In this document: positions 19,871 to 55,800 of the stretch, piece after piece
How positions within the stretch are numbered: position 1 is the stretch's first letter
How the letters are laid out: the number at the start of each line of letters is the position of its first letter
DNA from: Mobula hypostoma
Lineage: Eukaryota
Reading direction: 5' to 3'
Length of the DNA stretch: 64,000 bases
Assembly (NCBI RefSeq): GCF_963921235.1
Contig: NC_086097.1
Location: 54,810,001-54,874,000 of the forward strand
The notes under the pieces: model-generated
Database searches by the model: none
What the model was told of the DNA's origin: nothing
What the model saw: only the letters and a program-made list of their open reading frames with translations
Made by a program: the position numbers and the translations under genes

Positions 19871-21976
19871 GATTGTTGTAGGTAAAGCTTCAAATTAATC
19901 ACTAATCAAGGAGTTCAAGTAGGATTAAATATTTTGTTATAGTTCAGGACTGTTCCAAGTTCTTCCCAATAACTAGATTAATTTTTTTTGGATACTTTGT
20001 TGTATTAATTTAGAAATATTCATATCCAAGAGTTTGGTCACAGGAACCTCCTTGTCCAGAATTGCGAAGACTAAATAAAAATTCTGCAGTCAAGAGCAGG
20101 AAATTATCTCTAATAAAATGAGAGACAAATGAACTTTGTCATTTAACTCTTAAGTGATCAGCACATTTTGTGAGCTTTCAAAGTACTGTACTCAAACTTC
20201 TGTACACACAGCATCTGAAACAATGAAATGTATTTACAGTAATCGCTAAATCAATTGCAAAAATTATAAAAATGAAGTTTATTTTATCATGTCTGATAAT
20301 TATTCTACAATTCTACAAAGGGTTAAAAAAAATTATCAGTTAGTGACTGGTACAACCAAGCGAAAGCAAACAGCTTTATCATAAAATTGGAATGTCATAG
20401 GTAAACAATGAGAGGTAATGGAGGAGTTTTTAAAAGGTAATTTGTTAGAAGGGTGATATTTAATAATAATAAATAAGGGTTTTCTACAGAATACTGTATA
20501 TGCATTGGATTGGAATTACTTTAAGCTTGATTTCTTCAGGCTGTTTCCTCCAACTGTTTTGCTGTCTTTCACAGAAAATTTAAAATTATAAGCCATACGG
20601 AAATTCATGTTTAAAAAGCAATCACCGCTGATAATCTGAAAACAAATACATTTAGGTTAAACCAAGATAACACATATAAATGAACAAGGTTTTTTACTTT
20701 GAGAATGAAGAGAGAGAAGACAAGAAAGAAGTTTGGCCAATGGGGAAATTAGGGGAAAGATTAGGGGTAAAAACAGAAGTGAGCAGAGAGAAGGAATGTA
20801 GGAAGAACTGACCAAGAATGGGAAAGAAAAAGGAAGGAGGAAAGAAAGAGGAACAGAGATTTTTGTTTGTGCAAGAGGAGGTGGTTTTATGAGTGACAAG
20901 TTTGCTTTAACAGGGCAGAAACTGGTAAATTCTCCTTCAATGAAAGAATTAGTTCTTTTTTTAACTTGAAGTTGGTACTTGCTTATCATGTTTACTTTTT
21001 CTCTCGCTATGCAAAGTTTCATGGGATTTCCAAGGTTATTTGCTTTGGGCTTTCAATGATAGCACTCACATTTTGCTTGTTATTTCAGAAGGCTGCAGTA
21101 TATTTTAGACTATTATTTCTCTTGGGGATTGTTGGGAGATGCACAACTAACTCGTTCTGACATCAACATTTTGCAACAGCAAGCATAATTGCCTTTAAGC
21201 CAGCTCCTACCTTTGGCTCTATCATTCTTCTTCAGGTTAGAAAAAAACAGAAATTGAGTGCTCTCTTCACTTTCACAGATATATTTATTATTCCAAATAT
21301 GGATGTTGATTTTTTCCCTTTTGATAGCTTTAACATAAGATTGTGCCATATTACATCATGTTTACAAAACCATTGAAACTACTCATTGCTTTTAAATATA
21401 AAATAAACTACAAGTGCTAAGAAATTTCCTGTAAATACTTTTGCAAAATAATCTGTTAAGCAATTTCTGAGAAAACAACTTATCAGGAATTTCTGTTTTA
21501 TTTTCTTAATAACTATAGTAGGTCTTATTAACCAAGTTAAACACCTAAAGCTGTAACTACAGAGCATGAATGTAAATGAGCAGATTCACCTAAGTTTGGA
21601 TTATTGACTTGCCATCAAGACAGCCAACCACCAAAGCAAAAAACAGCATAAAATAAAAGTCTGCCTAGCTATTTTTGTGCCACAGCAAGTGAGGCAGAAG
21701 AAACAAGCTGTACATTTATCATTGTAACGTAGCAATGACCCAGATAGAAAATGGTGGTGTCATCATTCGTAAAGATTTGAAGCATATGGGCAGCATGAAT
21801 TTAGCCTCTTGAAAATGGCTGGGAGAATATTCATGAGTAGTGTTCCCTCTAATTTGTAATGACCAGTGTGTGCAAAAATTAGCACTGTGCAATGTTTTGC
21901 TCAGTGACAACAGCACATGTACAATGAATTTTATATATAGAGAAATTCATTTTAACTGCTAGGAAAACAGCTAGTC

Positions 21977-23944
21977 AGACCTATTGTCTCAGCTTGCTCC
22001 TGCCCCACCGAACTCATTTCTGCATACCTCGACACGGTTTTATTCCCCCTTGTTCAATCCCTTCCGACCTATGTTCGTGACACTTCTCACGCTCTTAAAC
22101 TTTTCGATGATTTTAAGTTCCCTGGCCCCCACCGCTTTATTTTCACCATGGATGTCCAGTCCCTATATACTTCCATCCCCCATCAGGAAGGTCTCAAAGC
22201 TCTACGCTTCTTTTTGGATTCCAGACCTAATCAGTTCCCCTCTACCACCACTCTGCTCCGTCTAGCGGAATTAGTCCTTACTCTTAATAATTTCTCCTTT
22301 GGCTCCTCCCACTTCCTCCAAACTAAAGGTGTAGCTATGGGCACCCGTATGGGTCCTAGCTATGCCTGCCTTTTTGTTGGCTTTGTGGAACAATCTATGT
22401 TCCGTGCCTATTCTGGTATCTGTCCCCCACTTTTCCTTCGCTACATCGACGACTGCATTGGCGCTGCTTCCTGCACGCATGCAGAGCTCGTTGACTTTAT
22501 TAACTTCGCCTCCAACTTTCACCCTGCCCTCAAGTTTACCTGGTCCATTTCCGACACCTCCCTCCCCTTTCTAGATCTTTCTGTCTCTGTCTCTGGAGAC
22601 AGCTTATCCACTGATGTCTACTATAAGCCTACTGACTCTCACAGCTATCTGGACTATTCCTCTTCTCACCCTGTCTCTTGCAAAAACGCCATCCCCTTCT
22701 CGCAATTCCTCCGTCTCCGCCGCATCTGCTCTCAGGATGAGGCTTTTCATTCTAGGACGAGGGAGATATCTTCCTTTTTTAAAGAAAGGGGCTTCCCTTC
22801 CTCCACTATCAACTCTGCTCTTAAACGCATCTCCCCCATTTCACGTACATCTGCTCTCACTCCATCCTCCCACCACCCCACTAGGAATAGGGTTCCCCTG
22901 GTCCTCACCTACCACCCCACCAGCCTCCGGGTCCAACATATTATTCTCCGTAACTTCCGCCACCTCCAACGGGATCCCACCACTAAGCACATCTTTTCCT
23001 CCCCGCCTCTCTCTGCATTCCGCAGGGATCGCTCCCTACACGACTCCCTTGTCCATTCGTCCCCCCCATCCCTCCCCACTGATCTCCCTCCTGGCACTTA
23101 TCCGTGTAAGCAGAACAAGTGCTACACATGCCCTTACACTTCCTCCCTTACCACCATTCAGGGCCCCAAACAGTCCTTCCAGGTGAGGCAACACTTCACC
23201 TGTGAGTCGGCTGGGGTGATATACTGCGTCCGGTGCTCCCGATGTGGCCTTTTATATATTGGCGAGACCCGATGCAGACTGGGAGACTGCTTTGCTGAAC
23301 ATCTACACTCTGTCCGCCAGAGAAAGCAGGATCTTCCAGTGGCCACGCATTTTAATTCCACATCCCATTTCCATTCTGACATGTCTATCCACGGCCTCCT
23401 CTACTGTAAAGATGAAGCCACACTCAGGTTGGAGGAACAACACCTTATATTACCTCTGGGTAGCCTCCAACCTGATGGCATGAACATCGACTTCTCTAAC
23501 TTCCGCTAATGCCCCACCTCCCCCTCGTACCCCATCTGTTACTTATTTTTATACATACTTTCTTTCTCTCACTCTCCTTTTTCTCCCTCTGTCCCTCTGA
23601 ATATACCTCTTGTTCATCCTCTGGGTCCCGCCCCCCCCCGTCTTTCTTCCCGGACCTCCTGTCCCATGATCCTCTCGTATCCCTTTTGCCTATCACCTGT
23701 CCAGCTCTTGGCTCCATCCCTCCCCCTCCTGTCTTCTCCTATCATTTTGGATCTCCCCCTCCCCCTCCAACTTTCAAATCCCTTACTCACTCTTCCTTCA
23801 GTTAGTCCTGACGAAGGGTCTCGGCCTGAAATGTCGACTGCACCTCTTCCTTGAGATGCTGACTGGCCTGCTGCGTTCACCAGCAACTTTTATGTTGTGT
23901 TGCTTGAATTTCCAGCATCTGCAGAATTCCTGTTGTTTGCGTTT
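21977..23944 (+). mobile_element. Young 5'-truncated Penelope-like retroelement
   Basis: Open frame from ~21977 to 23509, pyrimidine-rich 3' UTR, terminal repeat with hammerhead core ctgacga..gaaa.gtc at ~23808-23835. Confidence 0.95.
22148..23509 (+). CDS. Penelope RT + GIY-YIG endonuclease (453 aa from internal ATG; frame open ~57 codons further upstream; N-terminus missing)
   Basis: DVQSLYTSIP, GVAMGTRMGPSYA, LRYIDD, VYYKPT, C..C...C/CES linker, VIYCVRCSRC.LLYIGET, terminal GMN. Confidence 0.93.
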   Translation: MDVQSLYTSIPHQEGLKALRFFLDSRPNQFPSTTTLLRLAELVLTLNNFSFGSSHFLQTKGVAMGTRMGPSYACLFVGFVEQSMFRAYSGICPPLFLRYIDDCIGAASCTHAELVDFINFASNFHPALKFTWSISDTSLPFLDLSVSVSGDSLSTDVYYKPTDSHSYLDYSSSHPVSCKNAIPFSQFLRLRRICSQDEAFHSRTREISSFFKERGFPSSTINSALKRISPISRTSALTPSSHHPTRNRVPLVLTYHPTSLRVQHIILRNFRHLQRDPTTKHIFSSPPLSAFRRDRSLHDSLVHSSPPSLPTDLPPGTYPCKQNKCYTCPYTSSLTTIQGPKQSFQVRQHFTCESAGVIYCVRCSRCGLLYIGETRCRLGDCFAEHLHSVRQRKQDLPVATHFNSTSHFHSDMSIHGLLYCKDEATLRLEEQHLILPLGSLQPDGMNIDFSNFR

Positions 23945-35399: not shown

Positions 35400-38300
35400 C
35401 ATAGAACCATAGAAACTACAGCACAGAAACAGGCCTTTTTGGCCCTTCTTGGCTCTGCTGAACCATTTTCTGCCTAGTCCCACTGACCTGCACACAGACC
35501 ATATCCCTCCATACACCTCCCATCGATGTATCTGTCCAATTTATTCTTAAATGTTAAAAAAGAACCCGCATTTACCACCTCGTCTGGCAGCTCATTCCAT
35601 ACTCCCACCACTCTCTGTGTGAAGAAGCCCCCCCCTTATGTTCCCTTTAAACTTTTCCCCCATCACCCTTAACCCATGTCCTCTGGTTTTTTTCTCCCCT
35701 TGCCTCAGTGGAAAAAGCCTGCTTGCATTCACTCTATCTATACCCATCATAATTTTATATACCTCTATCAAATCTCCCCTCATTCTTCTACGCGCCAGGG
35801 AATAAAGTCCTAACCTATTCAACCTTTCTCTGTAACTGAGTTTCTCAAGTCCCGGCAACATCCTTGTAAACCTTCTCTGCACTCTTTCAACCTTATTTAT
35901 ATCCTTCCTGTAATTTGGTGACCAAAACTGAACACAATACTCCAGATTCGGCCTCACCAATGCCTTATCATACCATTCCAGCTCTTATACTCAATACTTT
36001 GATTAATAAAGGCCAATGTACCAAAAGCTCACTTTATGACCCTATCTACCTGTGACGCCACTTTTAGGGAATTTTGTATCTGTATTCCCGGATCCCTCCG
36101 TTCCACTGCACTCCTCAGTGCCTTACCATTAACCCTGTATGTTCTACCTTGGTTTGTCCTTCCAACATGCAATACCTCACACTTGTCTGTATTAAACTCC
36201 ATCTGCCATTTTTCAGCCCACTTTTCCAGCTGGTCCAAGTCCCTCTGCAGACTCTAAAAACCTTCCTCACTGTCTACTACATCTCCAATCTTTGTATCAT
36301 CATCAAATTTGCTGATCCAATTTACCACATTATCATCCAGATCATTGATATAGATGACAAATAACAATGGACCCAGCATTGATCCCTGTGGCACACCACT
36401 AGTCACAGGCCTCCACTCAGAGAAGCAATTCTCTACTACCACTCTTTGGCTTCTTCCATTGAGCCAATGTCTAATCCAATTTACCACCTCTCCATGTATA
36501 CCTAGCGACTGAATTTTCCTAACTAACCTCCCATGCGGGACCTTGTCAAAGGCCTTACTGAAGTCCATGTAGACAATATCCACTGCCTTCCCTTCATTCA
36601 CTTTCCTGGTAACCTCCTTGAAAAACTCCAATAGATTGGTCAAACGTGACCTACCACGCACAAAGCCATGTTGACTCTCCCTAATAAGTCCCTGTCTATC
36701 CAAATGCTTGTAGATTCTGTCTCTTAGTACTCCCTCCAATAACTTACCTACTACCAACGTTAAACTTACTGGCCTATAATTTCCCGGATTACTTTTCGAT
36801 CCTTTTTTAAACAACGGAACAACATAAGCCACTCTCCAATCCTCCGGCACCTAACCTGTAGACAGCGATATTTTAAATATTTCTGCCAGGGCCCCTGCAA
36901 TTTCAACACTAGTCTCCTTCAAGGTCCGAGGGAACACCCTGTCAGGTCCCGGGGATTTATCCACTTTAATTTTCCTCAAGACAGCAAGGACCTCCTCCTT
37001 TTCGATCTGTACAGTTTCCATGATCTCACTACGTGTTTCCTTTAATTCCATAGACTTCATGCCAGTTTGCTTAGTAAATACAGACGCAAAAAACCTATTT
37101 AAGATCTCCCCCATTTCCTTTGGTTCCGCACATAGCCAACCACTCTGATCTTCAAGAGGACCAGTTTTATCCCTTACAATCCTTTTGCTCTTAATATACC
37201 TGTAAAAGCTCTTTGGATTATCCTTCACTTTGACTGCCAAGGCAACCTCATGTCTTCTTTTAGCCCTCCTGATTTCTTTCTTAAGTATTTTCTTGCACTT
37301 CTTATACTCCTCAAGCACCTTATTTACTCCCTGCTTCCTATACATTTCATACAACTCACTCTTCTTCTTTATCAGAGTTGCAATATCCCTTGAGAGCCAA
37401 GGTTCCTTATTCCTATTCACTTTGCCTTTAATCCTGACAGGAACATACAAATTCTGCACTCTCAAAATTTCTCCTTTGAAGGCTTCCCACCTACTGATCA
37501 CATCCTTGCCAGAGAACAACCTGTCCCAATCCACGCTTTTTAGATCCTTTCTCATTTCTTCAAATTTGGCCTTCTTCCAGTTAAGAACCTCAACCCTAGG
37601 ACCAGATCTATCCTTGTCCATGATCAAGTTGAAACTAATGGTGTTATGATCACTGGAACCAAAGTGCTCCCCTACACAGACTTCTGTCACTTGTCCTAAC
37701 TCGTTTCCTAACAGGAGATGCAATATTGCATCCCCTCTAGTTGGTCCCTCTATATATTGATTTAGAAAACTTCCCTGAACACATTTTACAAACTCTAAAC
37801 CATCTAGACCCCTAACAGTATGGGAGACCCAATCAATGTATGGAAAATTAAAATCCCCAACCACCACAACTTTATGTTTCCTGCAGTTGCCTGCTATATC
37901 TCTGCAGATTTGCTCTTCCAATTCTCGTTGACTATTGGGTGGTCTGTAATACAATCCCACTAATGTGGCCATACCTTTCCTGTTTCTCAGCTCCACCCAT
38001 AAGGACTCAGTAGACAAGCCCTCTAATCTGTCCAGCCTGAGCACTGCTGTAATATTTTCCCTAACAAGCAAAGCTACTCCTCCACCTTTCGTTCCTCTGC
38101 CTCGATCACATCTGAAACATCGGAACCCTGGAATATTAAGCTGCCAGTCCTGCCCCTCCTGTAGCCAAGTTTCACTAATTGCTATAACGTCATAATTCCA
38201 CGTGTCAATCCATGCCCTCAACTCGTCCGCCTTCCCCGCAATACTCCTAGCATTGAAATATATACACCTCAGAAGATTTTTACCACCACTCACAACCTTT

Positions 38301-38456
38301 CTATTAGCGGATTTGCTTGAACTTTTAAAATCATTTATTTTCACCCCAGCCACGCTGTCAGTTCTGGCACTCTGGTTCCCATCCCCCTGCAAATCTAGTT
38401 TAAAACCTCCCCAATAGCATTAACAAACCTCCCTGAAAGGATATTGGTCCCCCTGT
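35400..38456 (-). mobile_element. Young CR1 LINE with nearly complete ORF2 (APE+RT), inactivated by stops at ~36851 and ~36254 and a small deletion near 35965
   Basis: ORFs 36851-38392 (513 aa: YFNARSI, ISETWL, GDFNFP, SSDHN), 36254-36850, 36029-36238 and 35592-35960. (ctatggtt)n-like tail. Confidence 0.95.
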
Positions 38457-41260: not shown

Positions 41261-42456
41261 CTAATTACCGACCTCCAGCTCGAGTAAGTCCCTTCGATAC
41301 CACTCTTTGTCAACTATGCGCAAGCCAGTTCCGAATCCAAACAGTCACTTCACCGCCGACCACATGCATCTGAATCTTCTGGATCAGCCTCCCATGAGGG
41401 ACTTTGTCAAATGCTTTACTAAAATCCATGTAGACAACACCCACTGCCCTACCCTCATCAATTTCTCTCATCACCTTGTCAACATGTTCAGTCAAGTTGG
41501 CAAGACATGACCTGCCCTGCACAAAACTGTGCTGGTTCTCCCTAATTAGACCATGGGTTTCCAAATGTTTATATATCCTATCCGTAAGAAGTTCTCCAGC
41601 AATGTTCCTACAATCAACGTGAGAAACACCAATCTATAGTTCCCAGGATTTTCCCTTATTCCCTTCTTAAGTAGAGATACAACATTAGCCACTTGCCAGT
41701 CCTCCAGGACCTTGCCTGTGGCTGAAGAGGACACAAAGATTCTGGTCAAGGCCCCAGTGATCTCGTTTCTTCCCTCCTTCAATTACCTGGGGTAAAACCC
41801 ATCAGGCCCTAGTGACTTGATACTCTTAGGAGAGCTAATCCTTCCTCCTCCTTGACCTCTAAACACCCTGGTGTATTTAGACACTCAGCACCGGTCTCCT
41901 AGTCCTCCGTATCCTTTTCCTTGGTAATTACTGAAGCAAAGTTCTCATGAAGTACCTCACTCACATTCTCCGCACCCAAGCAAATGTTCCCCCGTTTTTC
42001 CTCGAGTGATCCCACCCTCTTGCTCGATGCTTGTATAGAATGCCTTGGGATTCACCTTAATCCTAATTGCCAAGGACATCTCATGGCCCCTCCTGGCTTT
42101 CCTAATTCCCTTCTTTATATTTTTTCTGGCTTCTTTATACTCATCATGTGCTTCATTTGATCCAAACTTCTGAAGTTTTACATACTTTTCCTTTTTTTCC
42201 TTGACTAAATTCATCACCTCTCTGGTTATCCAATGTCCTCTTATTTTTCCATCCCCGTCCTTCCTTCGAACAACAACATGCCTTTCCTGTACTATACACT
42301 GGGAGGCCCATTCGTTAGTTAGGGCCTTCAGCATTTTGGGCACCGAGGGAGAGAGGAAGAGGAGAGCCATCCGCAGTACCACCGATGCGGCAGAGAGGGC
42401 CTCAAGATGGCTGTGGCTCAAAAGAGGGGAGCCATGGAGTCATAAGTAGCTAGCCA

Positions 42457-42574
42457 TCTGGACACAAGCTGGGGTCTGATCGGCCCCGGCTGGGTCACCT
42501 GGAGGAGGTTGTATGATGTTGAAAGACCCGAAACACCCGATGATTCCAGGAACATCACTGAAGATGTGTCCAGA
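42457..42574 (+). ncRNA. Non-circularly permuted hammerhead ribozyme, family A, 5' terminal-repeat copy
   Basis: GUA site 42511-42513, GAAA 42530-42533, CUGAAGA 42558-42564. Stem I tgatgtt/aacatca, gggtc/gaccc, cctgga/tccagg, closing stem tctggacaca/tgtgtccaga. Confidence 0.75.
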
Positions 42575-42797
42575 AGTATCAATAGATGTATGTACACAGC
42601 TTACACCCTGAGTTAATCAGTGACAACCAGGAAAGACTGGGTGACAACCACGAAAAGAGTGGTGACGACTGGAGAGTCAGTGACAGCCCGGAGAGACGGC
42701 AACCAGGGCAGAACGGGCTGGCAACCCAATCTGCATCCTCTGAAAGGAGGACCCCCACAAAAGCCACAAAGAATCTAAGGAGAAGATACCCCCAGGG

Positions 42798-45700
42798 GTG
42801 CCCGAGAGGGGGGGGGAGGATGAGCACCCCAGTCGGATGGACACAACGACATCAAACCCAGGCAATGAACAAACGACGATGAGGAAGCAGTGTGCATGTG
42901 GCAAAATCTGCAAGAACGATTGCGGTTTGAAGATCCACCAAGCGAGGATGAAGTGTTTGGCGGGAGCAGGAGCAGCACAACGCGCAGGTGTCCAACCTGG
43001 TGAGATGAAGGAGGGGCCAGGCCCGGAGTCACCCCATAGTGCCCGGAACCTCCAAGTGTTGCAAACTGATCCCTCGAACATGAAGTCTAACAGGAGGTGG
43101 ATCAAATGGCCTGCAGCTAACATGATTTCACTGTGGAAGCAGTTTGATGAAGATGTTAACCAAATTCTGGAGGCAACGGCAAAGGGAGGGGTTGATAGGA
43201 AGCTGCAAGCCATGACAACAATGATTGTCAGTATTGCAGCTGAACGGTTCGGAGAAGAGGAGAAGGAAGGCTCCAAAACATCTTACTCGAAGAACCAAAG
43301 AGCATTGAGGATCCACAACATCAGGCAGGAGATGAAAGCGCTGAAGTCCCAATACAAGGAGGCAGGAGAAGAGGAGCGCATTGGCTTGGCCCAGCTGATG
43401 TGCATACTATGAAAGAAGATCAGGGTCCTCCGCCGGGCAGAGTGGCATCGGAGGCAGCGTCGTGAAAGGGCCCGAAAACGTGCTGCCTTTATCGCCAACC
43501 CCTTCAAGTTCACCAAGGAGTTGCTGGGGGAGAAGTGCAGTGGGAAACTGGCCTGTTTGCAGGAAGACATAGACCAACATCTGAAAGAGAGCAGGAGTTG
43601 GGAGAGTGCGACATCCCAATAGACCCAACTGAACCGGATGTGCAGTTCGACATGTCAGAGCTGTAACTAAAGGAAGTCAGAGAGGTTGTCCGCAAAGCAA
43701 GGGCAAGCTCGGCTCCAGGACCAAGCAACACCTCGTACAAAGTGTACAAGAACTGCCCCAAACTCCTGCTGCGTCTGTGGAAGATCCTGAGAATGTTCTA
43801 GAGAAGGGGGAAGATCCCAGAACGGTGGAGAGTGGCTGAAGGGGTGTGGATCCCGAAGGAGGAAAACACCACCCAGATAGATCAGTTTGGCATCATCTTC
43901 CTGCTGTGTGTCAAGGCGAAGATCTTCTTCAGTGCCGTTTCTAACCGGCTGTGCACCTACCTGGCAAAGAACACCTATATTGATACATCAGTCCAGAAGG
44001 GTGGCACTTCAGGGATGCCGGGCTGTCTGGAGCATACCAGTGTGGTGACACAGCTCATCAGGGAGGCCAGAGAGAACAAGGGCAACCTGTCAGTGTTGTG
44101 GCTCGACCTGGCAAATGCATATGGCTCCATTCCGCACAAACTGGTGCAGCTCACACTGACCAAATATCACGTCCCCAGCAGAATCAGAAACCTTATCGCT
44201 GATTATTACAGCAACTTCAGGATGAGGGTCTCTTCAGGAGCAATTACATCAACCTGGCACAAGGTGGAGGTCAGCATCATCACAGGGTGCACTATCTCAG
44301 TGACACTGTTCTCCCTAGCCATGAACATGCTCACTAAGTCTGCTGAATCAGAGTGCAGAGGGCCCAGAATGAATTCCGCTCAATGGCAACCACCTATCAG
44401 GGCATTCATGGATGACCTCACAGTCACCACAGCATCAGTCCCAGGCTGCCAGTGGATTCTGCAAGGGCTCGAAAAGCTGGTGGAGTGGGCCCAGATGCGT
44501 TTCAAACCTGCCAAATCAAGATCGATGGTGCTGAGGAAAGGGAAGGTGGAGAACAAGTTCCAGTTCAGCATCGCAGGCACAGCCATCCCAACCATCACAG
44601 AAAAGCCAGTCAAGAGCTTAGGCAAAGTTTTTGACAGCTCTTTAAGGGACACAACATCCATTCAGGCAACATGCACCGAGTTGGATGGCTGGCTGTAATC
44701 TGTGAACAAGTCTGGCCTACCTGGGAAGTTTAAAGCCTGGGTGTATCAGCGTGGCATTCTTCCCAGAATCCTGTGACCCCTCCTCGTCTATGCAGTTCCA
44801 ATCTCGACAGTCGAAACCTTAGAGAGGAGGGTTAGCAACCACCTCAGGAGATGGCTGGGGCTGCCAAAGAGCCTGAGCAGCATCGCACTCTATGGACACC
44901 ACAACAAACTGCAACTGCCCTTCAAATCCTTGGAGGAAGAATTCAAGGTAACAAGAGTCAGAGAAGTGCTACAGTATAGGGACTCAAGTGACCCGAAGGT
45001 GGCTAGAGCAGGGATCCAAGTAAGTACTGGTAGGAAGTGGAGGGCAGAGGAAGCTGTTCAGGAGGCAGAGGCGCGGCTGCGTCATAGGAGGCTGGTGGGA
45101 GTGGTCACACGAGGCCGAGCTGGGCTAGGATCCTTTCCAACTCCCCAAATGGACACCAGAGGCAAGGAAAGGCGTTGTCTAGTTCAGGAGGAGGTGAGAG
45201 CAGTAGTGGAGGAGATGAGAGCCTGCAAGGCGGTGGGAATGAAGCAACAGGGTTGGACAAGATGTGAGAATGTGGTTGAGAGGAAAGTGACCTGGGCTGA
45301 TCTTTGGAAAGCCAAACCACACCGCATCCAATTTCTCATCCAGGCAGTGTACGATGTGCTTCCAAGCCCATCAAACCTGCACACATGGGGCAAGGCAGAG
45401 TCATCTGCGTGCCCACTGTGCTCCAAGCGAGGAACTCTGGCGCACATCCTCAGCGGCTGCGCAAGGGCACTTGGTGAGGGACGGTACAGGTGGAGGCATG
45501 ATCAGGTCCTGAAGACCATCGCTGAAGCCGTCAGCGCAGGAGTTGAGTGGGCGAAGCGGTCCCAACCCTCCAAGCAGACCATTGCCTTTGTCAGAGCTGG
45601 GAAGCAGCCAATACCTGCCAAAAGAATATCTGCAGGCATTCTGACCTCTGCAAGGGACTGGCAGCTGTTGGTGGACCTCGAAGGGCAGCTGAAGTTCCCC

Positions 45701-46063
45701 AACCATATCGCAGCCACCACCCTGTGACCAGACATTGTCCTAGTGTCTGAGTCGACTAAGCAAGTGGTGCTGCTGGAGTTGACAGTCCCATGGGAAGATA
45801 GCTTGGAAGAGGCCTTTGAAAGGAAGCTCTCCAAGTACGCAGGACTGGTCAGCAACTGTCAGCAGGCTGGATGGAGAGCGAGGTGTCTCCCAGTGGGGGT
45901 TGGTTGTAGGAGATTCGTAGCCCGTTCTTTAGTTAGGGCCTTCAGCATCTTGGGCATCGAGGGAGAGAGGAAGAGGAGAGCCATCCGCAGTACCACCGAT
46001 GCGGCAGAGAGGGCCTCAAGATGGCTGTGGCTCAAAAGAGGGGAGCCATGGAGTCATAAGTAG
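42798..46063 (+). pseudogene. Disrupted ORF: Zn finger + RT + CCHC + restriction-like endonuclease
   Basis: CACGKICKN..GLKIHQARMKC, LDLANAYGSIPH, AFMDD, CPLC..GTL.HILSGC, RYRWRHD, PDIVLVSESTKQVVLLELTVPWE. Stops at 43410, 44696 and 45725, plus frameshifts. Confidence 0.92.
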
Positions 46064-46070
46064 CTAGCCA

Positions 46071-46188
46071 CCTGGACAGAAGCTGGGGTCTGATCAGCCC
46101 CGGCTGGGTCACCTGGAGGAGGTTGTATGATGTTGAAAGACCCGAAACACCCGATGATTCCAGGAACATCACTGAAGATGTGTCCAGA
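46071..46188 (+). ncRNA. Permuted hammerhead, family A, 3' terminal-repeat copy
   Basis: GUA 46125-46127, GAAA 46144-46147, CUGAAGA 46172-46178. Two substitutions in the closing stem. Confidence 0.72.
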
Positions 46189-46731
46189 AGCATCAATAGA
46201 TGTATGTACACAGCAGTACACTGTTTAATTCATCTTTAAACACCTTCTGCATGTCTGATGTGGACTTGTCAGAGAAAAGGTGTTCCCAATTAACTCTTCT
46301 TAGTTCCTGCCTAATGCCCTTGTAATTTGCTCTACTCTAATTTAAAGCTCTCCCACAAGGAGTTGTGGTCACTGTTCCCCAGCTGCTCACCCACTGAAAG
46401 GTCAGTCACCTGGCCTGGCTCATTACCCAACACCAGGTCCAGTGTGGTCCCTCCTATCACTGGACCTTCCAGATACTGATTGAAGAAACCTTCCTGGATA
46501 CACTTAACAAGCTCTGCCCCATCTAGGTGCCTCTTGCACTAAAGTCCCAGCTTATATAAGGAGTTGAAATCTCCCATGACACAATCCTATTATTTTTTAC
46601 ATTTTCTTAAACTGAATACCAATGTCCCGGTGGCTATTGGGGTGGGGGGAGCATTATAGTTCCACGTACTGATCCATGCTCAAAGTTCATCACCCTTACC
46701 CATAATACTAGCAGTAAAATATGCACACTTA

Positions 46732-49165: not shown

Positions 49166-50737
49166 AGGACACAACATCCATTCAGGCAACCTGCACCGAG
49201 TTGGATAGCTGGCTGAAATCTGTGGACAAGTCTGGCCTACCTGGGAAGTTTAAAGCCTGGGTGTATCAGCATGGCATTCTTCCCAGAATCCTGTGGCCCC
49301 TCCTCGTCTATGCAGTTCCGATCTCGACAGTCAAAACCTTAGAGAGGAGGGTTAGCAACCACCTCAGGAGATGGCTGGGGCTGCCAAAGAGCCTGAGCAG
49401 CATCGCACTTTATGAACACCACAACAAACTGCAACTGCCCTTCAAATCCTTGGAGGAAGAATTCAAGGTAACAAGAGTCAGAGAAGTGCTACAGTATAGG
49501 GACTCAAGTGACCCGAAGGTGGCTCGAGCAGGGATCCAAGTAAGTACTGGTAGGAAGTGGAGGGCAGAGGAAGCTGTTCAGGAGGCAGAGGCGCGGCTGC
49601 GTCATAGGAGGCTGGTGGGAGTGGTCACACGAGGCCGAGCTGGGCTAGGATCCTTTCCAACTCCCCAAATGGACACCAGAGGGAAGGAAAGGCGTCGTCT
49701 AGTTCAGGAGGAGGTGACAGCAGTAGTGGAGGAGATGAGAGCCTGCAAGGCGGTGGGAATGAAACAACAGGGAGCTTGGACAAGATGGGAGAATGTGGTT
49801 GAGAGGAAAGTGACCTGGGCTGATCTTTGGAAAGCCGAACCACACCGCATCCAATTTCTCATCCAGGCAGTGTACGATGTGCTTCCAAGCCCATCAAACC
49901 TGCACACATGGGGCAAGGCAGAGTCATCTGCGTGCCCACTGTGCTCCAAGCGAGGAACCCTGGAGCACATCCTCAGCGGCTGTGCAAGGGCACTTGGTGA
50001 GGGACAGTACAAGTGGAGGCATGATCAGGTCCTGAAGACCATCGCTGAAGCTGCCAGTGCAGGCGTTGAGTGGGCGAAGCGGTCCTGACCCTCCAAGCAG
50101 ACCATTGCCTTTGTCAGAGCTGGGGAGCAGCCAATACCTGCCAAAAGAACATCTGCAGGCATCCTGACCTCTGCAAGGGACTGGCAGCTGTTGGTGGACC
50201 TCGAACGGCAGCGGAAGTTCCCCAACCATATCGCAACCACCACCCTATGACCAGACATTGTCCTAGTGTCTGAGTCGACTAAGCAAGTTGTGCTGCTGGA
50301 GCTGACAGTCCCATGGGAAGATAGCTTGGAGGAGGCCTTTGAAAGGAAGCTCTCCAAGTACGCAGGACTGGTCAGCAACTGTCAGCAGGCTGGATGGAGA
50401 GCGAGGTGTCTCCCAGTGGAGGTTGGTTGTAGGGGATTCGTAGCCCATTCTTTAGTTAGAGCATTCAGCATCTTGGGCATCGAGGGAGAGAGGAAGAGGA
50501 GAGCCATCCGCAGTACCACCGATGCGGCAGAGAGGGCCTCAAGATGGCTGTGGCTCAAAAGAGGGGAGCCATGGAGTCATAAGTAGCTAGCCATCTGGAC
50601 ACAAGCTGGGGTCTGATCAGCCCCGGCTGGGTCACCTGGAGGAGGCTGTATGATGTTGAAAGACCCGAAACACCCGATGATTCCAGGAACATCACTGAAG
50701 ATGTGTCCAGAAGCGTCAATAGATGTATGTACACAGC
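49166..50737 (+). mobile_element. 5'-truncated second copy of the Hero-like family A element
   Basis: Highly similar to 44646-46214. ORFs 49201-50088 and 50266-50586. Same 3' end ...gtacacagc. Confidence 0.93.
50594..50711 (+). ncRNA. Permuted hammerhead, family A, third copy
   Basis: GUA 50648-50650, GAAA 50667-50670, CUGAAGA 50695-50701. Closing stem intact. Confidence 0.73.
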
Positions 50738-52819: not shown

Positions 52820-55800
52820 AGAACATAGAATAGTACAGCACAGTACAGGCCCTTCAGCCCACAATGTTGTGCCGACCCTCAAACCCTGCCTCCCATGTAA
52901 CCCCCCACTTTAAATTCCTCCATATACCTGTCCAGTAGTCTCTGAAACTACACAAGTGTATCTGCCTCCACCACTGACTCAGGCAGTGCATTCCACGCAC
53001 CAACCACTCTCTGAGTAAAAAACCTTCCTCTAATGTCCCCCTTGAACTTCCCACCCCTTACCTTAAAGCCAGGTCCTCTTGTATTGAGCAGTGGTACCCT
53101 GGGGAAGAGGCGCTGGCTATCCACTCTATCTATTCCTCTTAATATCTTGTATACCTCTATCATGTCTCCTCTCATCCTCCTTCTCTCCAAAGAGTAAAGC
53201 CCTAGCTCCTTTGATCTCTGATCAAAATGCATACTCTCTAAACCAGGCAGCATCCTGGTAAATCTCCTCTGTACCCTTTCCAATGCTTCCACATCCTTTC
53301 TATAGTGAGACAACCAGAACTGGACACAGTACTCCAAGTGTGGCCTAACCAGAGTTTTATAGAGCTGCATCATTACATCGCGACTCTTAAACTCGACTTA
53401 TGAAAGCTAACACCCCATAAGCTTTCTTAACTACCCTATCTACCTGTGAGGCAACTTTCAGGGATCTGTGGACATGTACTCCAAGACCCCTCTGCTCCTC
53501 CACACTACCAAGTATCCTGCAATTTACTTTGTACTCTGCCTTGGAGTTTGTCCTTCCAAAGTGTACCACCTCACACTTCTCTGGGTTGAACTCCATGTGC
53601 CAGCCTACTACTGCATCCTATCAATGTCTCTCTGCAATCTTCGACAATCCTCTACATTATCTACAACACCACCAACCTTTGTGTCATCTGCAAACTTGCC
53701 AACCCACCCTTCTACCCTCACATCCAGGTCATTAATAAAAATCACAAAAGGAGAGGTCCAGAACCAATCCTTGTGACACACCACTAGTCCCAACTCTTCA
53801 ATCCGAATGTACTCCCTCCATCACGACTCTCTGCTTTCTGCAGGCAAGCCAATTCTGAATCCACCTGGCCAAACTTCCCTGGATCCCATGCCTTCTAACT
53901 TTCTGAATAAGCCTACCATGTGGAACCTTGTCAAATGCCTTACTAAACTCCATGTAGATAACATCCACTGCACTACCCTCATCTATATGCCTGGTCCCCT
54001 CCTCAAAGAACTCTATCAGGCTTGTTAGACACGATCTGCCCTTCACAAAGCCATGCTGACTGTCCCTGATCAGACCATGATTCTCTAAATGCCCATAGAT
54101 CCTATCTCTAAGAATTTTTTCCAACAGCTTTCCCACCATAGGTGTAATACTCACTGGTCTATAATTACCTGGACTATCCCTACTACCTTTTTTGAACAAG
54201 GGGGCAATGTTCGCCTCCCTCCAATCCTCCGGTACCATTCCCGTGGACAACGAGGACATAAAGACCCTAGCCAGAGGCTCATCAATCTCTTCCCTTGCCT
54301 CGTGGAGCAGCCTGGGGAATATTCCGTCAGGCCCCGAGGACTTATCCGTCCTAATGTATTTTAACAACTCCAACACCTCCTCTCCCTTAATATCAACATG
54401 CTCCAGAACATCAACCTCACTCATATTGTCCTCACCGTCATCAAGTTCCCTCTCATTGGTGAATACTGAAGAGAAGTATTCATTGAGGACCTCGCTCACT
54501 TCCACAGCCTCCAGGCACATCTTCCCACCTTTATCTCTAATCGGTCCTACCTTCACTCCTGTCATCCTTTTGTTCTTCACATAATTGAAGAATGCCTTGG
54601 GGTTTTCCTTTACCCTACTCGCCAAGGCCTTCTCATGCCCCCTCCTTGCTCTTTTCAGCCCCTTCTTAAGCTCCTTTCTTGCTTCCCTATATTCCTCAAT
54701 AGACACATCTGATCCGTGCTTCCTAAACCTCATGTATGTTGCTTTCTTCCACCTGACTAGATTTTCCACCTCACTTGTCACCCATGGTTCCTTCACCCAA
54801 CCATTCTTTATCTTCCTCACCGGGACAAATTTATCCCTAACATCCCGCAAGAGATCTCTAAACATCGACCACATGTCCATAGTACATTTCCCTGCAAAAA
54901 CATCATCCCAATTCACACCCGCAAGTTCTAACCTTATAGCCTCATAATTTGTCCTTCCCCAGTTAAAAATTCTCTTGTCCTCTCTGATTCTACCCTTTTC
55001 CATGATAATGCTAAAGGGCAGGGAATGGTGGTCACTGTCCCCCAGATGCTCACCCACTGAGAGATCTGTGACCTGACCTGGTTCGTTACCTAGTACTAGA
55101 TCCAGTATGGCATTCCCCCTAGACGGACTGTCAACATACTGTGACAGGAATCCATCCTGGACACACTTAACAAACTCTGCCCCATCTAAACCCTTGGAAC
55201 TAATCAGGTGCCAATCAATATTAGGGAAGTTAAAGTCACCCATGATAACAACCCTGTTACTTTTGCACCTTTCCAAAATCTGCCTCCCAATCTGCTCCTC
55301 TGTATCTCTGCTGCTACCAGGGGGCCTATAGAATACCCCCAATAGAGTAACTGCTCCCTTCCTGTTCCGGACTTCCACCCATACTGACTCAAAAGAGGAT
55401 CCTGCTACATTACCCACCCTTTCTGTAGCTGTAATAGTATCCCTGACCAGTAATGCCACCCCTCCGCCCCTTTCCCCCGCTCTCTATCCCTTTTAAAGCA
55501 CTGAAATCCAGGAATATTGAGAATCCATTCCTGCCCTGGTGCCAGCCAAGTCTCTGTAATGGCCACTACATCATAATGCTATGTATGTATCCAAGCTCTC
55601 AGTTCATCACCTTTGTTCCTGATGCTTCTTGCATTGAGGTACACACATTTCAGCCCTTCTACCTTCCTACCTTTACACCATTTATTCTGCTTCTCTTTCC
55701 TCAAAACCTCTCTATATGTTAGATCTGGCTTTACTCCATGCACTTCTTTCAATGCTCTATCACTCCGGGTCCCATCCCCCTTGCAAATTAGTTTAAACCC

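What the first reader, a model, noticed from the sequence alone, without database searches (positions are those of the whole stretch)
42457..42574. Non-circularly permuted, pseudoknotted hammerhead ribozyme in the 3' UTR of Hero-like RLE retrotransposons
Seen: all hammerhead core elements are present, but in the order NUH (GUA 42511-42513), GAAA (42530-42533), CUGANGA (42558-42564), which is none of the three circular permutations (types I-III). Stem I is UGAUGUU/AACAUCA. Stem III is GGUUGU/ACACCC with one mismatch. The stem II position is GGGUC/GACCC, with the G strand supplied from upstream. A CCUGGA/UCCAGG helix, a side hairpin and a 10-bp closing helix are effectively inserted between A9 and G10.1. 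Three copies occur (also 46071-46188 and 50594-50711). Established: R2-type elements use 5' HDV-like ribozymes and Penelope elements use ordinary hammerheads. I recall that natural non-circularly permuted hammerheads have been reported, but cannot verify whether this motif is one of them. Inference: it is a self-cleaving RNA that processes the element transcript. Standard hammerhead models would probably miss it.
Basis: partly seen in the sequence, partly recalled or inferred. Interest (0 to 1): 0.92.

Follow-up and report, generated by a model that had tools for sequence, protein, structure and literature searches.

The report
Rearranged hammerhead ribozyme in Hero retrotransposons
The tail of a fish "Hero" jumping gene carries a conserved RNA fold with every hallmark of a self-cutting hammerhead ribozyme, wired in an order not described before, though cutting itself has not been shown.

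Summary
Window 42457-42574 (+), and copies at 46071-46188 and 50594-50711, lie 8 nt after the stop codon of an RT plus restriction-like-endonuclease retrotransposon of Hero type.

In 13 lineages (two families of this genome, 11 metagenome contigs; proteins 52-89% identical) the hammerhead core never changes: CUGAnGA (only n varies), GAAA, and GUH (H = A, C, U, never G). All helices keep pairing through compensatory changes.

Block order is cleavage site, GAAA, CUGAnGA. This is the ring order of the non-circularly permuted hammerheads of Eckert et al. 2023. Here, however, the CUGAnGA block is split between A9 and G10.1 by a closing helix and a hairpin. That paper assumed such a split does not occur.

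Rfam finds nothing, and six literature searches found no report of it.

Self-cleavage is untested. None of 30 genomic copies begins at the predicted site, so reverse-transcribed RNAs were intact there.

Of 30 full-length copies, 27 are preceded by a precisely joined 3'-end fragment. This often places a second ribozyme upstream, which suggests transcript processing (inferred).

Verdict: a real, selected hammerhead-type fold, a new variant of a known kind. Its role is open.

The parts
42447..42449 (+). Stop codon (TAG) of the RT-RLE ORF; the motif starts 8 nt later
42457..42466 (+). Closing helix, 5' strand (pairs with 42565-42574)
   Evidence: Canonical in 116/118 cells over 13 lineages; compensatory changes at 9 of 10 positions.
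42467..42491 (+). Side hairpin (8 bp) with invariant loop UGAUC(A); abuts the closing helix and stem II with no spacer
42492..42496 (+). Stem II 5' strand (G10.1 = 42492), pairs with 42525-42529
   Evidence: 65/65 canonical cells; two positions change on both sides between the two clades
42498..42503 (+). Helix x, 5' strand (pairs with 42545-42550); ties the distal ends of stems I and II
   Evidence: 72/75 canonical cells, 3 positions with compensatory change
42507..42512 (+). Stem III 5' strand, ending in U16.1 (42512)
   Evidence: 75/78 canonical cells, 3 positions with compensatory change, several independent
42513..42513 (+). H17; predicted cleavage 3' of A42513
   Evidence: GUH in 13/13 lineages: A 6, C 5, U 2, never G. 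The cleavage position is inferred from hammerhead numbering, not measured.
42514..42520 (+). Stem I 5' strand (pairs with 42551-42557)
   Evidence: The 4 core-proximal pairs are canonical in 52/52 cells, and all 4 change on both sides between clades.
42521..42524 (+). 2-6 nt linker from stem I to stem II, as in type-SGC hammerheads
   Evidence: Eckert 2023, section read
42525..42529 (+). Stem II 3' strand (C11.1 = 42529)
42530..42533 (+). GAAA (G12 A13 A14 A15.1)
   Evidence: invariant in 13/13
42534..42538 (+). Stem III 3' strand
42545..42550 (+). Helix x, 3' strand
42551..42557 (+). Stem I 3' strand
42558..42564 (+). CUGAAGA (C3-A9)
   Evidence: CUGAnGA in 13/13; n = U 7, A 5, C 1
42565..42574 (+). 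Closing helix, 3' strand; follows A9 directly
42575..42601 (+). 3' tail with a small hairpin (42577-42588). Element 3' end at about 42599-42601; no poly(A).
42306..42601 (+). Copy 1: a 296-nt 3'-terminal fragment joined directly to the 5' end of copy 2
42602..46214 (+). Copy 2: full-length unit of 3613 nt with 5' UTR, RT and RLE ORF (broken by stops and frameshifts) and 3' UTR
46071..46188 (+). Motif in copy 2
50594..50711 (+). Motif in copy 3 (5'-truncated element from about 49090)

Best explanation
The 118-nt segment is a hammerhead-type self-cleaving ribozyme with a connectivity not yet described. It is a conserved part of the 3' UTR of Hero-clade non-LTR retrotransposons, which encode RT plus a restriction-like endonuclease.

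Structure. The three helices and all core nucleotides of a hammerhead are present. Along the chain they run: stem II 5' strand, helix x, [stem III - GUH - stem I], a short linker, [stem II - GAAA - stem III], helix x, [stem I - CUGAnGA]. This is the ring order of Eckert's SGC/CSG/GCS permutations, opened inside the CUGAnGA block between A9 and G10.1. The opening is bridged by a closing helix and a side hairpin that abut stem II without spacers. I read this as a four-way junction: closing helix stacked on hairpin, stem II stacked on the G.A domain. That reading is inference.

Predicted reaction. Mg-dependent cleavage 3' of A42513 (inferred).

Likely role (inferred, less certain). Most full-length copies carry a second copy of the 3' end just upstream. 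The ribozyme can therefore cut element RNA out of longer transcripts. One cut would free it from upstream host RNA, as the 5' HDV-like ribozyme does for R2. Two cuts would give a unit-length RNA whose two ends are the two halves of one ribozyme. The same fold may also be what the RT recognises. RNAs that were actually copied into DNA were uncut at this site.
For: 1. All parts are at the stated coordinates.

2. Conservation across 13 lineages (window family, a second family of the same genome, 11 metagenome contigs; proteins 52-89% identical):
- CUGAnGA in 13/13, with only N7 varying.
- GAAA in 13/13.
- GUH in 13/13 with H = A/C/U.
- G10.1-C11.1 in 13/13.

3. Pairing:
- Stem I 52/52, stem II 65/65, stem III 75/78, helix x 72/75, closing helix 116/118 canonical cells.
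- With partners slid by 1-3 nt the figure falls to 11-65%.
- Compensatory changes occur in every helix.

4. Tool counts on MAFFT alignments:
- Clade A, 9 sequences: 96.7% paired, 10 pairs changed on both sides, 0/500 shuffles as high.
- Clade B, 4 sequences: 98.6% paired, 10 pairs changed on both sides, 0/500 shuffles as high.

5. RNAalifold on its own finds the closing helix, hairpin, helix x and stem III.

6. The descriptor finds only the 3 copies in the window and 0 hits in 200 shuffles.

7. The stem I-to-stem II linker and the helix joining their other strands match the text description of type SGC.

8. Of 30 full-length 5' ends, 27 are preceded by a precisely joined 3'-end fragment of 21-630 nt, and 15 of these reach past the motif. 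The same tandem layout occurs in L032, L034, L039, L040 and L042.
Against: - No cleavage assay exists.
- 0 of 30 genomic copies sampled with the 88-nt 3' product begin at the predicted site.
- Upstream fragments show no pile-up there: 1 of 30 at about 90 nt, where 87-88 is expected.
- Contigs of sequencing runs, some perhaps RNA, run across the site (X1 record 4; X10 records 12-16).
- Stems I and II vary only between the two clades, so each rests on essentially one evolutionary event. The 13-lineage alignment was made by hand around the hypothesis. Stem I and II registers, however, are fixed by adjacency to the invariant core.
- A helix insertion between A9 and G10.1 has no tested precedent. 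Eckert et al. assumed the blocks cannot be interrupted. From recall, this is next to a catalytic metal site.
- The window's own copies have a U x C or C x C mismatch in stem III.
Confidence: 0.72

Rival explanations
1. The fold descends from, or converges on, a hammerhead but serves mainly as the structured 3' UTR that the element's RT binds for target-primed reverse transcription, like the pseudoknotted R2 3' UTR. Under this reading, self-cleavage is absent, very slow, or suppressed in vivo.
For: - 0/30 copies start at the site, and there is no pile-up of upstream fragments there.
- The motif fills most of a 3' UTR of about 150 nt, where RLE elements are known to carry RT-binding structure. 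The abstract of PMC12222951, seen in the listing, says R2Tg binds a pseudoknotted RNA.
- The hairpin loop UGAUC(A), which has no role in a hammerhead, is invariant in 13/13.
- Eckert's permuted forms are slow cleavers.
Against: - Protein binding alone does not explain why exactly the catalytic residues are invariant while the one free core position (N7) varies.
- It also does not explain why H17 is never G.
- The two roles are not exclusive.
Confidence: 0.22
2. Chance resemblance: a structured 3' UTR that happens to contain CUGAnGA, GAAA and UH.
For: - The descriptor was defined after seeing the motif.
- Short core motifs are common. A partial pattern matched 15 bacterial contigs by chance.
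Against: - 0 hits in 200 shuffles.
- 0 of the 15 chance matches had CUGAnGA within 60 nt.
- All core positions are kept in two clades whose stems I and II have different sequences.
Confidence: 0.03
3. An ordinary type-SGC hammerhead in which stem II is formed by the bases just after CUGAAGA (42566-42570) instead of the upstream GGGUC.
For: GUGUC can pair with GACCC at 4 of 5 positions if one U is skipped (read).
Against: - The same bases form a perfect 10-bp closing helix that covaries.
- In clade B the bases after CUGAnGA have no complementarity to GCGCC.
- The upstream strand pairs in 65/65 cells.
Confidence: 0.03

Closest known systems
Non-circularly permuted hammerhead ribozymes, types SGC, CSG and GCS (Eckert, Friedrich, Weinberg & Weinberg, NAR 2023, PMC10085705; sections 13, 15 and 18 read)
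   Same: - Same ring order of blocks (site, GAAA, CUGAnGA).
- Same conserved core.
- A 2-6 nt linker from stem I to stem II.
- An extra helix tying the other strands of stems I and II.
- At least two pseudoknots.
   Different: - The CUGAnGA block is split between A9 and G10.1, and a closing helix plus hairpin sits there. The paper assumed blocks are never interrupted.
- The host is a eukaryotic autonomous retrotransposon. Eckert's examples came from metatranscriptome RNAs and bacteria.
- The paper's text and one supplement file have no hit for fish, Danio, Branchiostoma or vertebrate. 'Retrotransposon' and 'eukaryot' occur in them only in reference lists and in one remark on a bacterial gene.
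- Figures could not be seen.
Classic hammerheads of retroelements: minimal type I in Penelope-like elements, and retrozymes (Cervera & de la Pena 2014, 2016, 2020; seen in listings and reference lists)
   Same: - A hammerhead core carried by a retroelement and present in repeated or tandem copies.
- Two cuts could release a unit RNA.
   Different: - Those are types I and III, three-way junctions without core pseudoknots, and Rfam models detect them.
- This one is in a non-LTR RLE element and Rfam misses it.
5' HDV-like ribozymes of R2 and other non-LTR elements (Eickbush & Eickbush 2010; Ruminski et al. 2011; cited in PMC13725137, passages read)
   Same: A self-cleaving RNA in an RLE-type non-LTR element that could free element RNA from a longer transcript.
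   Different: - A different ribozyme class.
- Located at the 5' end, not in the 3' UTR.
- No HDV-like match at this element's 5' end.
Pseudoknotted 3' UTR of R2 bound by its RT (PMC12222951; abstract only, in the listing)
   Same: A structured, pseudoknotted 3' UTR in an RLE element.
   Different: R2 3' UTRs are not reported there to carry a ribozyme core. RT binding was not tested here.
Discontinuous hammerhead in rodent Clec2 3' UTRs (Martick et al. 2008; seen only as a reference, content recalled)
   Same: A hammerhead in a 3' UTR with unusual spacing of its parts.
   Different: From recall, it is a normal type III order with a long insertion in a stem loop, not a reordering or a split core block.

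Membership tests
Hammerhead ribozyme (fold and core) | C3 U4 G5 A6 N7 G8 A9 strand | tested here: met
   CUGAnGA in 13/13 lineages; only N7 varies
Hammerhead ribozyme (fold and core) | G12 A13 A14 with an A15.1-U16.1 pair | tested here: met
   GAAA in 13/13; U-A in 13/13
Hammerhead ribozyme (fold and core) | Cleavage triplet NUH with H not G | tested here: met
   GUA 6, GUC 5, GUU 2 of 13
Hammerhead ribozyme (fold and core) | Stems I, II and III flank the core strands directly and are kept by covariation | tested here: met
   Stem III covaries within clades. Stems I and II covary only between the two clades.
Hammerhead ribozyme (fold and core) | Site-specific self-cleavage giving 2',3'-cyclic phosphate and 5'-OH ends | not testable with these tools
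   Indirect look only: 0/30 genomic copies start at the site. Only contigs, not raw reads, were available.
Hammerhead types I, II, III (circular permutations) | Cyclic order site -> CUGAnGA -> GAAA, forming a three-way junction without core pseudoknots | tested here: not met
   The order is site, GAAA, CUGAnGA. No Rfam hammerhead hit at E up to 10.
Eckert type SGC / CSG / GCS | Cyclic order site -> GAAA -> CUGAnGA | tested here: met
Eckert type SGC / CSG / GCS | Each of the three blocks is uninterrupted (CUGAnGA directly followed by the stem II strand) | tested here: not met
   A9 is followed by the closing helix, and G10.1 lies upstream after the side hairpin, in 13/13 lineages.
Hero clade of RLE non-LTR retrotransposons | RT followed by a Cys/His knuckle and a PD..(D/E)xK-type endonuclease | tested here: met
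   RVT_1 and zf-RVT. The CPLC...H...C and PD...ELT motifs are visible in the translations.
Hero clade of RLE non-LTR retrotransposons | Groups with named HERO elements in an RT phylogeny | tested here: inconclusive
   - The ORF is 59-65% identical to Takifugu BAC82598.1 and Tetraodon AAN12398.1/BAC82599.1.
- HEROFr and HEROTn are AB097130 and AB097131 (PMC2790886, passage read).
- That these proteins are their products is my inference.
- No tree was built.
Hero clade of RLE non-LTR retrotransposons | Mostly non-site-specific insertion | tested here: met
   The 3' flanks differ in 19 of 19 non-tandem loci. HERO is described as largely non-specific in PMC4640811 (passage read).

The most novel reading that the evidence does not exclude
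Hero elements may use the permuted hammerhead as retrozymes and Penelope-like elements use theirs. Loci of the form [3' fragment with ribozyme]-[full-length unit with ribozyme] would be transcribed and cut twice. The unit-length RNA would carry the two halves of one ribozyme at its ends, which refold and are ligated into a circular, protein-coding LINE RNA. Reverse transcription running on around such a circle would explain the exact 3'-end/5'-end junction upstream of 27 of 30 full-length copies. That would be the first autonomous non-LTR retrotransposon with a ribozyme-made circular or permuted RNA intermediate.
Probability: 0.12. Interest if true: 0.92.

Novelty: new variant of a known kind. 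Interest (0 to 1): 0.8.

Why it matters
- It would be the first non-circularly permuted hammerhead in a eukaryotic genome, and in an autonomous retrotransposon present in at least hundreds of copies. First-look candidates numbered 680 and 2186 for the two families (these are not true copy numbers).
- It breaks the rule that the three hammerhead blocks are indivisible. A four-way junction may be tolerated right beside the catalytic core. That widens the search space for hidden ribozymes and gives RNA engineers a new topology.
- It adds the Hero clade to the retroelements that carry self-cleaving RNAs. With the tandem 3'-fragment layout, it makes testable how promoter-poor LINEs make their RNA ends.

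Tried and rejected
- Rfam, gathering and permissive: no hammerhead or other credible hit over the motif. No HDV-like hit at the element's 5' end.
- MAFFT of all 12 sequences (A3) misaligned stems I and III of clade B. I used separate clade alignments (A4, A5) and a coordinate-defined block alignment instead.
- Pattern scan of bacterial and archaeal genome contigs: 15 matches, all chance, 0 with CUGAnGA. Viral contigs: 0.
- Own-genome search with the clade B motif (L040): nothing.
- Read laying on 4 runs: only assembled contigs, so no molecule ends and no verdict on cleavage or expression.
- Earlier findings searched by sequence and by words: nothing.
- Alternative stem II partners were rejected because neither is kept in clade B. 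These were 42472-76 inside the hairpin and 42566-70 after A9.
- Pairing of the hairpin loop with the 42539-44 spacer is not conserved in clade B (read).

Full report
**Observation**

- GUA is at 42511-13, GAAA at 42530-33 and CUGAAGA at 42558-64.
- Stem I is 42514-20/42551-57, with seven Watson-Crick pairs.
- Stem III is 42507-12/42533-38, with one U x C mismatch.
- Stem II is 42492-96/42525-29.
- A CCUGGA/UCCAGG helix, which I call x, is 42498-503/42545-50.
- There is a side hairpin at 42467-91 and a perfect 10-bp closing helix at 42457-66/42565-74.

Copies at 46071-46188 and 50594-50711 differ at a few positions. An MFE fold recovers the closing helix and the side hairpin, and its centroid structure also recovers x. 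RNAalifold on nine relatives recovers those three plus stem III.

**Context**

- The motif begins 8 nt after the TAG stop (42447-49) of an ORF with RVT_1 and zf-RVT domains. The translation shows a Cys/His knuckle and a PD...ELT endonuclease motif.
- The element ends about 27 nt after the motif, at ...ACACAG(C), without poly(A). It lies in different flanking DNA at 19 of 19 non-tandem loci.
- The genome is 3.48 Gb. It holds at least 40 near-identical copies (97-100%) among 65 first-look candidates, of which 40 were scored.
- The closest proteins are from many teleosts and amphioxus. They include Takifugu BAC82598.1 and Tetraodon AAN12398.1/BAC82599.1 at 59-65% identity.
- HEROFr and HEROTn are GenBank AB097130/1 (PMC2790886, passage read). 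That those proteins are their products is my inference.
- HERO is described as the RLE clade with many non-site-specific members (PMC4640811, passage read).
- 'Hero-like' is therefore reasonable but was not tested with a tree.

**Relatives**

A scan of metagenome contigs with an alignment of 15 homologues gave 37 loci.
- Eleven loci include the 3' UTR, and all eleven carry the motif. Their proteins are 52-89% identical to the query.
- A twelfth locus, L063, keeps only the 3' part of the motif and was left out. The other 25 loci do not reach the 3' UTR or are degenerate there (L059).
- A second, older Hero family in the same genome also has the motif. I used one well-preserved copy of it, L128.
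- That makes 13 lineages in two clades.

I cut each sequence into blocks by coordinates and counted.
- Core: CUGAnGA in 13/13 (n = U 7, A 5, C 1), GAAA in 13/13, GUH in 13/13 (A 6, C 5, U 2), G10.1-C11.1 in 13/13.
- Canonical cells: stem I 52/52 (the four core-proximal pairs), stem II 65/65, stem III 75/78, x 72/75, closing helix 116/118. With the partner slid by 1-3 nt the figure is 11-65%.
- Positions with changes on both sides: stem I 5 of 8, stem II 2 of 5, stem III 3 of 6, x 3 of 7, closing helix 9 of 10.

On MAFFT alignments, the counting tool gave these results.
- Clade A (9 sequences): 96.7% paired, 10 pairs changed on both sides, 0 of 500 shuffles as high.
- Clade B (4 sequences): 98.6% paired, 10 such pairs, 0 of 500 shuffles as high.

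Caveats:
- Within a clade, stems I and II hardly vary. Their covariation is between clades (UGAU/AUCA versus GUGR/YCAC; GGGUC/GACCC versus GGCGC/GCGCC), so it rests on few events.
- The combined alignment is hand-made. The registers of stems I and II, however, are fixed by adjacency to H17, CUGA and GAAA.

**Chance**

A descriptor was written after seeing the motif. It requires CUGAnGA, GAAA 19-44 nt upstream of it, UH, 4/4 pairs in stem I, at least 4/5 in stem III, and 5/5 in stem II with G-C first. It hits only the three copies in the window's 128 kb and nothing in 200 dinucleotide shuffles. A partial sequence pattern matched 15 bacterial contigs, none of which had CUGAnGA within 60 nt.

**Topology**

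A hammerhead has three strands: S (III-NUH-I), C (I-CUGAnGA-II) and G (II-GAAA-III).
- Types I-III are the three openings of the ring S-C-G.
- Eckert et al. 2023 (PMC10085705; sections 13, 15 and 18 read; figures not visible) found and validated the other ring, S-G-C, as types SGC and CSG, with weaker support for GCS.
- They assumed each block is uninterrupted.
- They describe a linker of about 3 nt from stem I to stem II, and a helix joining the other strands of stems I and II.

The Hero motif has that ring, that linker (2-6 nt) and that helix (x), but the ring is opened inside block C.
- A9 runs straight into the closing helix, with 0 nt between in 10 lineages and 1 nt in 3.
- G10.1 follows the side hairpin with no spacer.
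- The closing helix and the hairpin also abut.

I read this as a four-way junction with two coaxial stacks, which would leave the core geometry intact. This is inference, and nothing here tests it. It is therefore a new variant, not a member of the published types.

Rfam 15 gives no hammerhead hit even at E up to 10.

**Is it cut in vivo?**

I could only look for footprints.
- If cut RNA were reverse-transcribed, copies would start at 42514. With the 88-nt 3' product as query, 0 of 30 retrieved copies start there. All continue upstream.
- Assembled contigs from four runs cross the site. They cannot show molecule ends, and most runs are only guessed to be RNA.
- In vivo cleavage is therefore neither shown nor excluded. 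Productive templates were intact at the site.
- T to G at 46123 (equivalent to 42509) closes the stem III mismatch. It is common in all four runs and in some genomic copies.

**Tandem layout and role**

- Of 30 full-length 5' ends, 27 are preceded by a 3'-terminal fragment of the element (21-630 nt). It is joined at the same point with no extra bases.
- Fifteen fragments reach past the motif's 5' end. Two of these show deletions inside the motif.
- Fragment start points scatter. Only L085 (about 90 nt) is near the cut site at 87-88 nt.
- The same layout occurs in L032, L034, L039, L040 and L042, so it is a trait of the clade.
- From recall, R2-type RTs jump between templates, which could create such fragments. 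A longer-than-unit or circular template would do so too.
- Either way, about half of the full-length copies have a ribozyme roughly 90 nt upstream of their 5' end. Cutting there would free the element RNA from upstream transcript, as the R2 5' HDV-like ribozyme does (cited in PMC13725137, passages read).
- Cutting at both ribozymes would give a unit RNA ending in complementary ribozyme halves.

These roles are inference. The lack of a pile-up at 87-88 nt speaks against efficient cutting of the RNAs that became new copies.

**Novelty**

Six full-text searches found no report of a ribozyme in Hero elements or of this split form, nor did a term search in one 2026 preprint. Subscription papers, Repbase reports and bioRxiv supplements were not searchable.

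**Limits**

- There are 13 lineages in two clades, and the hosts of the metagenome contigs are unknown.
- There is no biochemistry and there are no raw RNA reads.
- The figures of the key paper were unseen.

Noticed in passing
window 42602-42700; also L039:3340-3470 and L040:2290-2490: The element's 5' UTR opens with 4-5 tandem units of about 20 nt, each a small hairpin (GUGACAAC - CNNG - GARAGA - CNNG). Similar units follow the 3' UTR in distant lineages. Their function is unknown; a promoter, an IRES or RT binding are possibilities.
   Followed up: no
own-genome loci L068-L097; window 42306-42601 joined to 42602: 27 of 30 full-length copies are preceded by a 21-630 nt fragment of the element's own 3' end, joined at an identical point with no filler bases. 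The layout recurs in five metagenome contigs.
   Followed up: partly
window 42477-42482 (loop of the side hairpin): The loop sequence UGAUC(A) is invariant in 13/13 lineages. UGAUCA is self-complementary, so it could be a kissing-loop dimerisation site or a protein contact.
   Followed up: no
window 44777-45724 (ORF piece): This ORF piece is 80-85% identical to proteins annotated in very distant teleosts (Conger, Limanda, Sphaeramia, Entelurus, Clupea). It is 89% identical to a metagenome contig. Such similarity across hosts hints at horizontal spread of this Hero lineage.
   Followed up: no
own genome, e.g. L128-L143: A second, older Hero family, closest to metagenome contig L039, carries the same motif in GUA and GUC versions. 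It gave 2186 first-look candidates.
   Followed up: partly
window 42509 / 46123 / 50646: The stem III mismatch position is polymorphic: U or C (unpaired) or G (paired). G predominates in contigs of four runs from other organisms.
   Followed up: partly
L034:1-90: This public contig begins 1 nt after the first base downstream of the predicted cleavage site of an upstream ribozyme copy. This is probably coincidence.
   Followed up: no
window 36257-38419 (-), 53801-55483 (-), 21956-23506 (+): Other long ORFs typical of unrelated LINE-type elements, with diverged repeats elsewhere in the window. Not examined.
   Followed up: no
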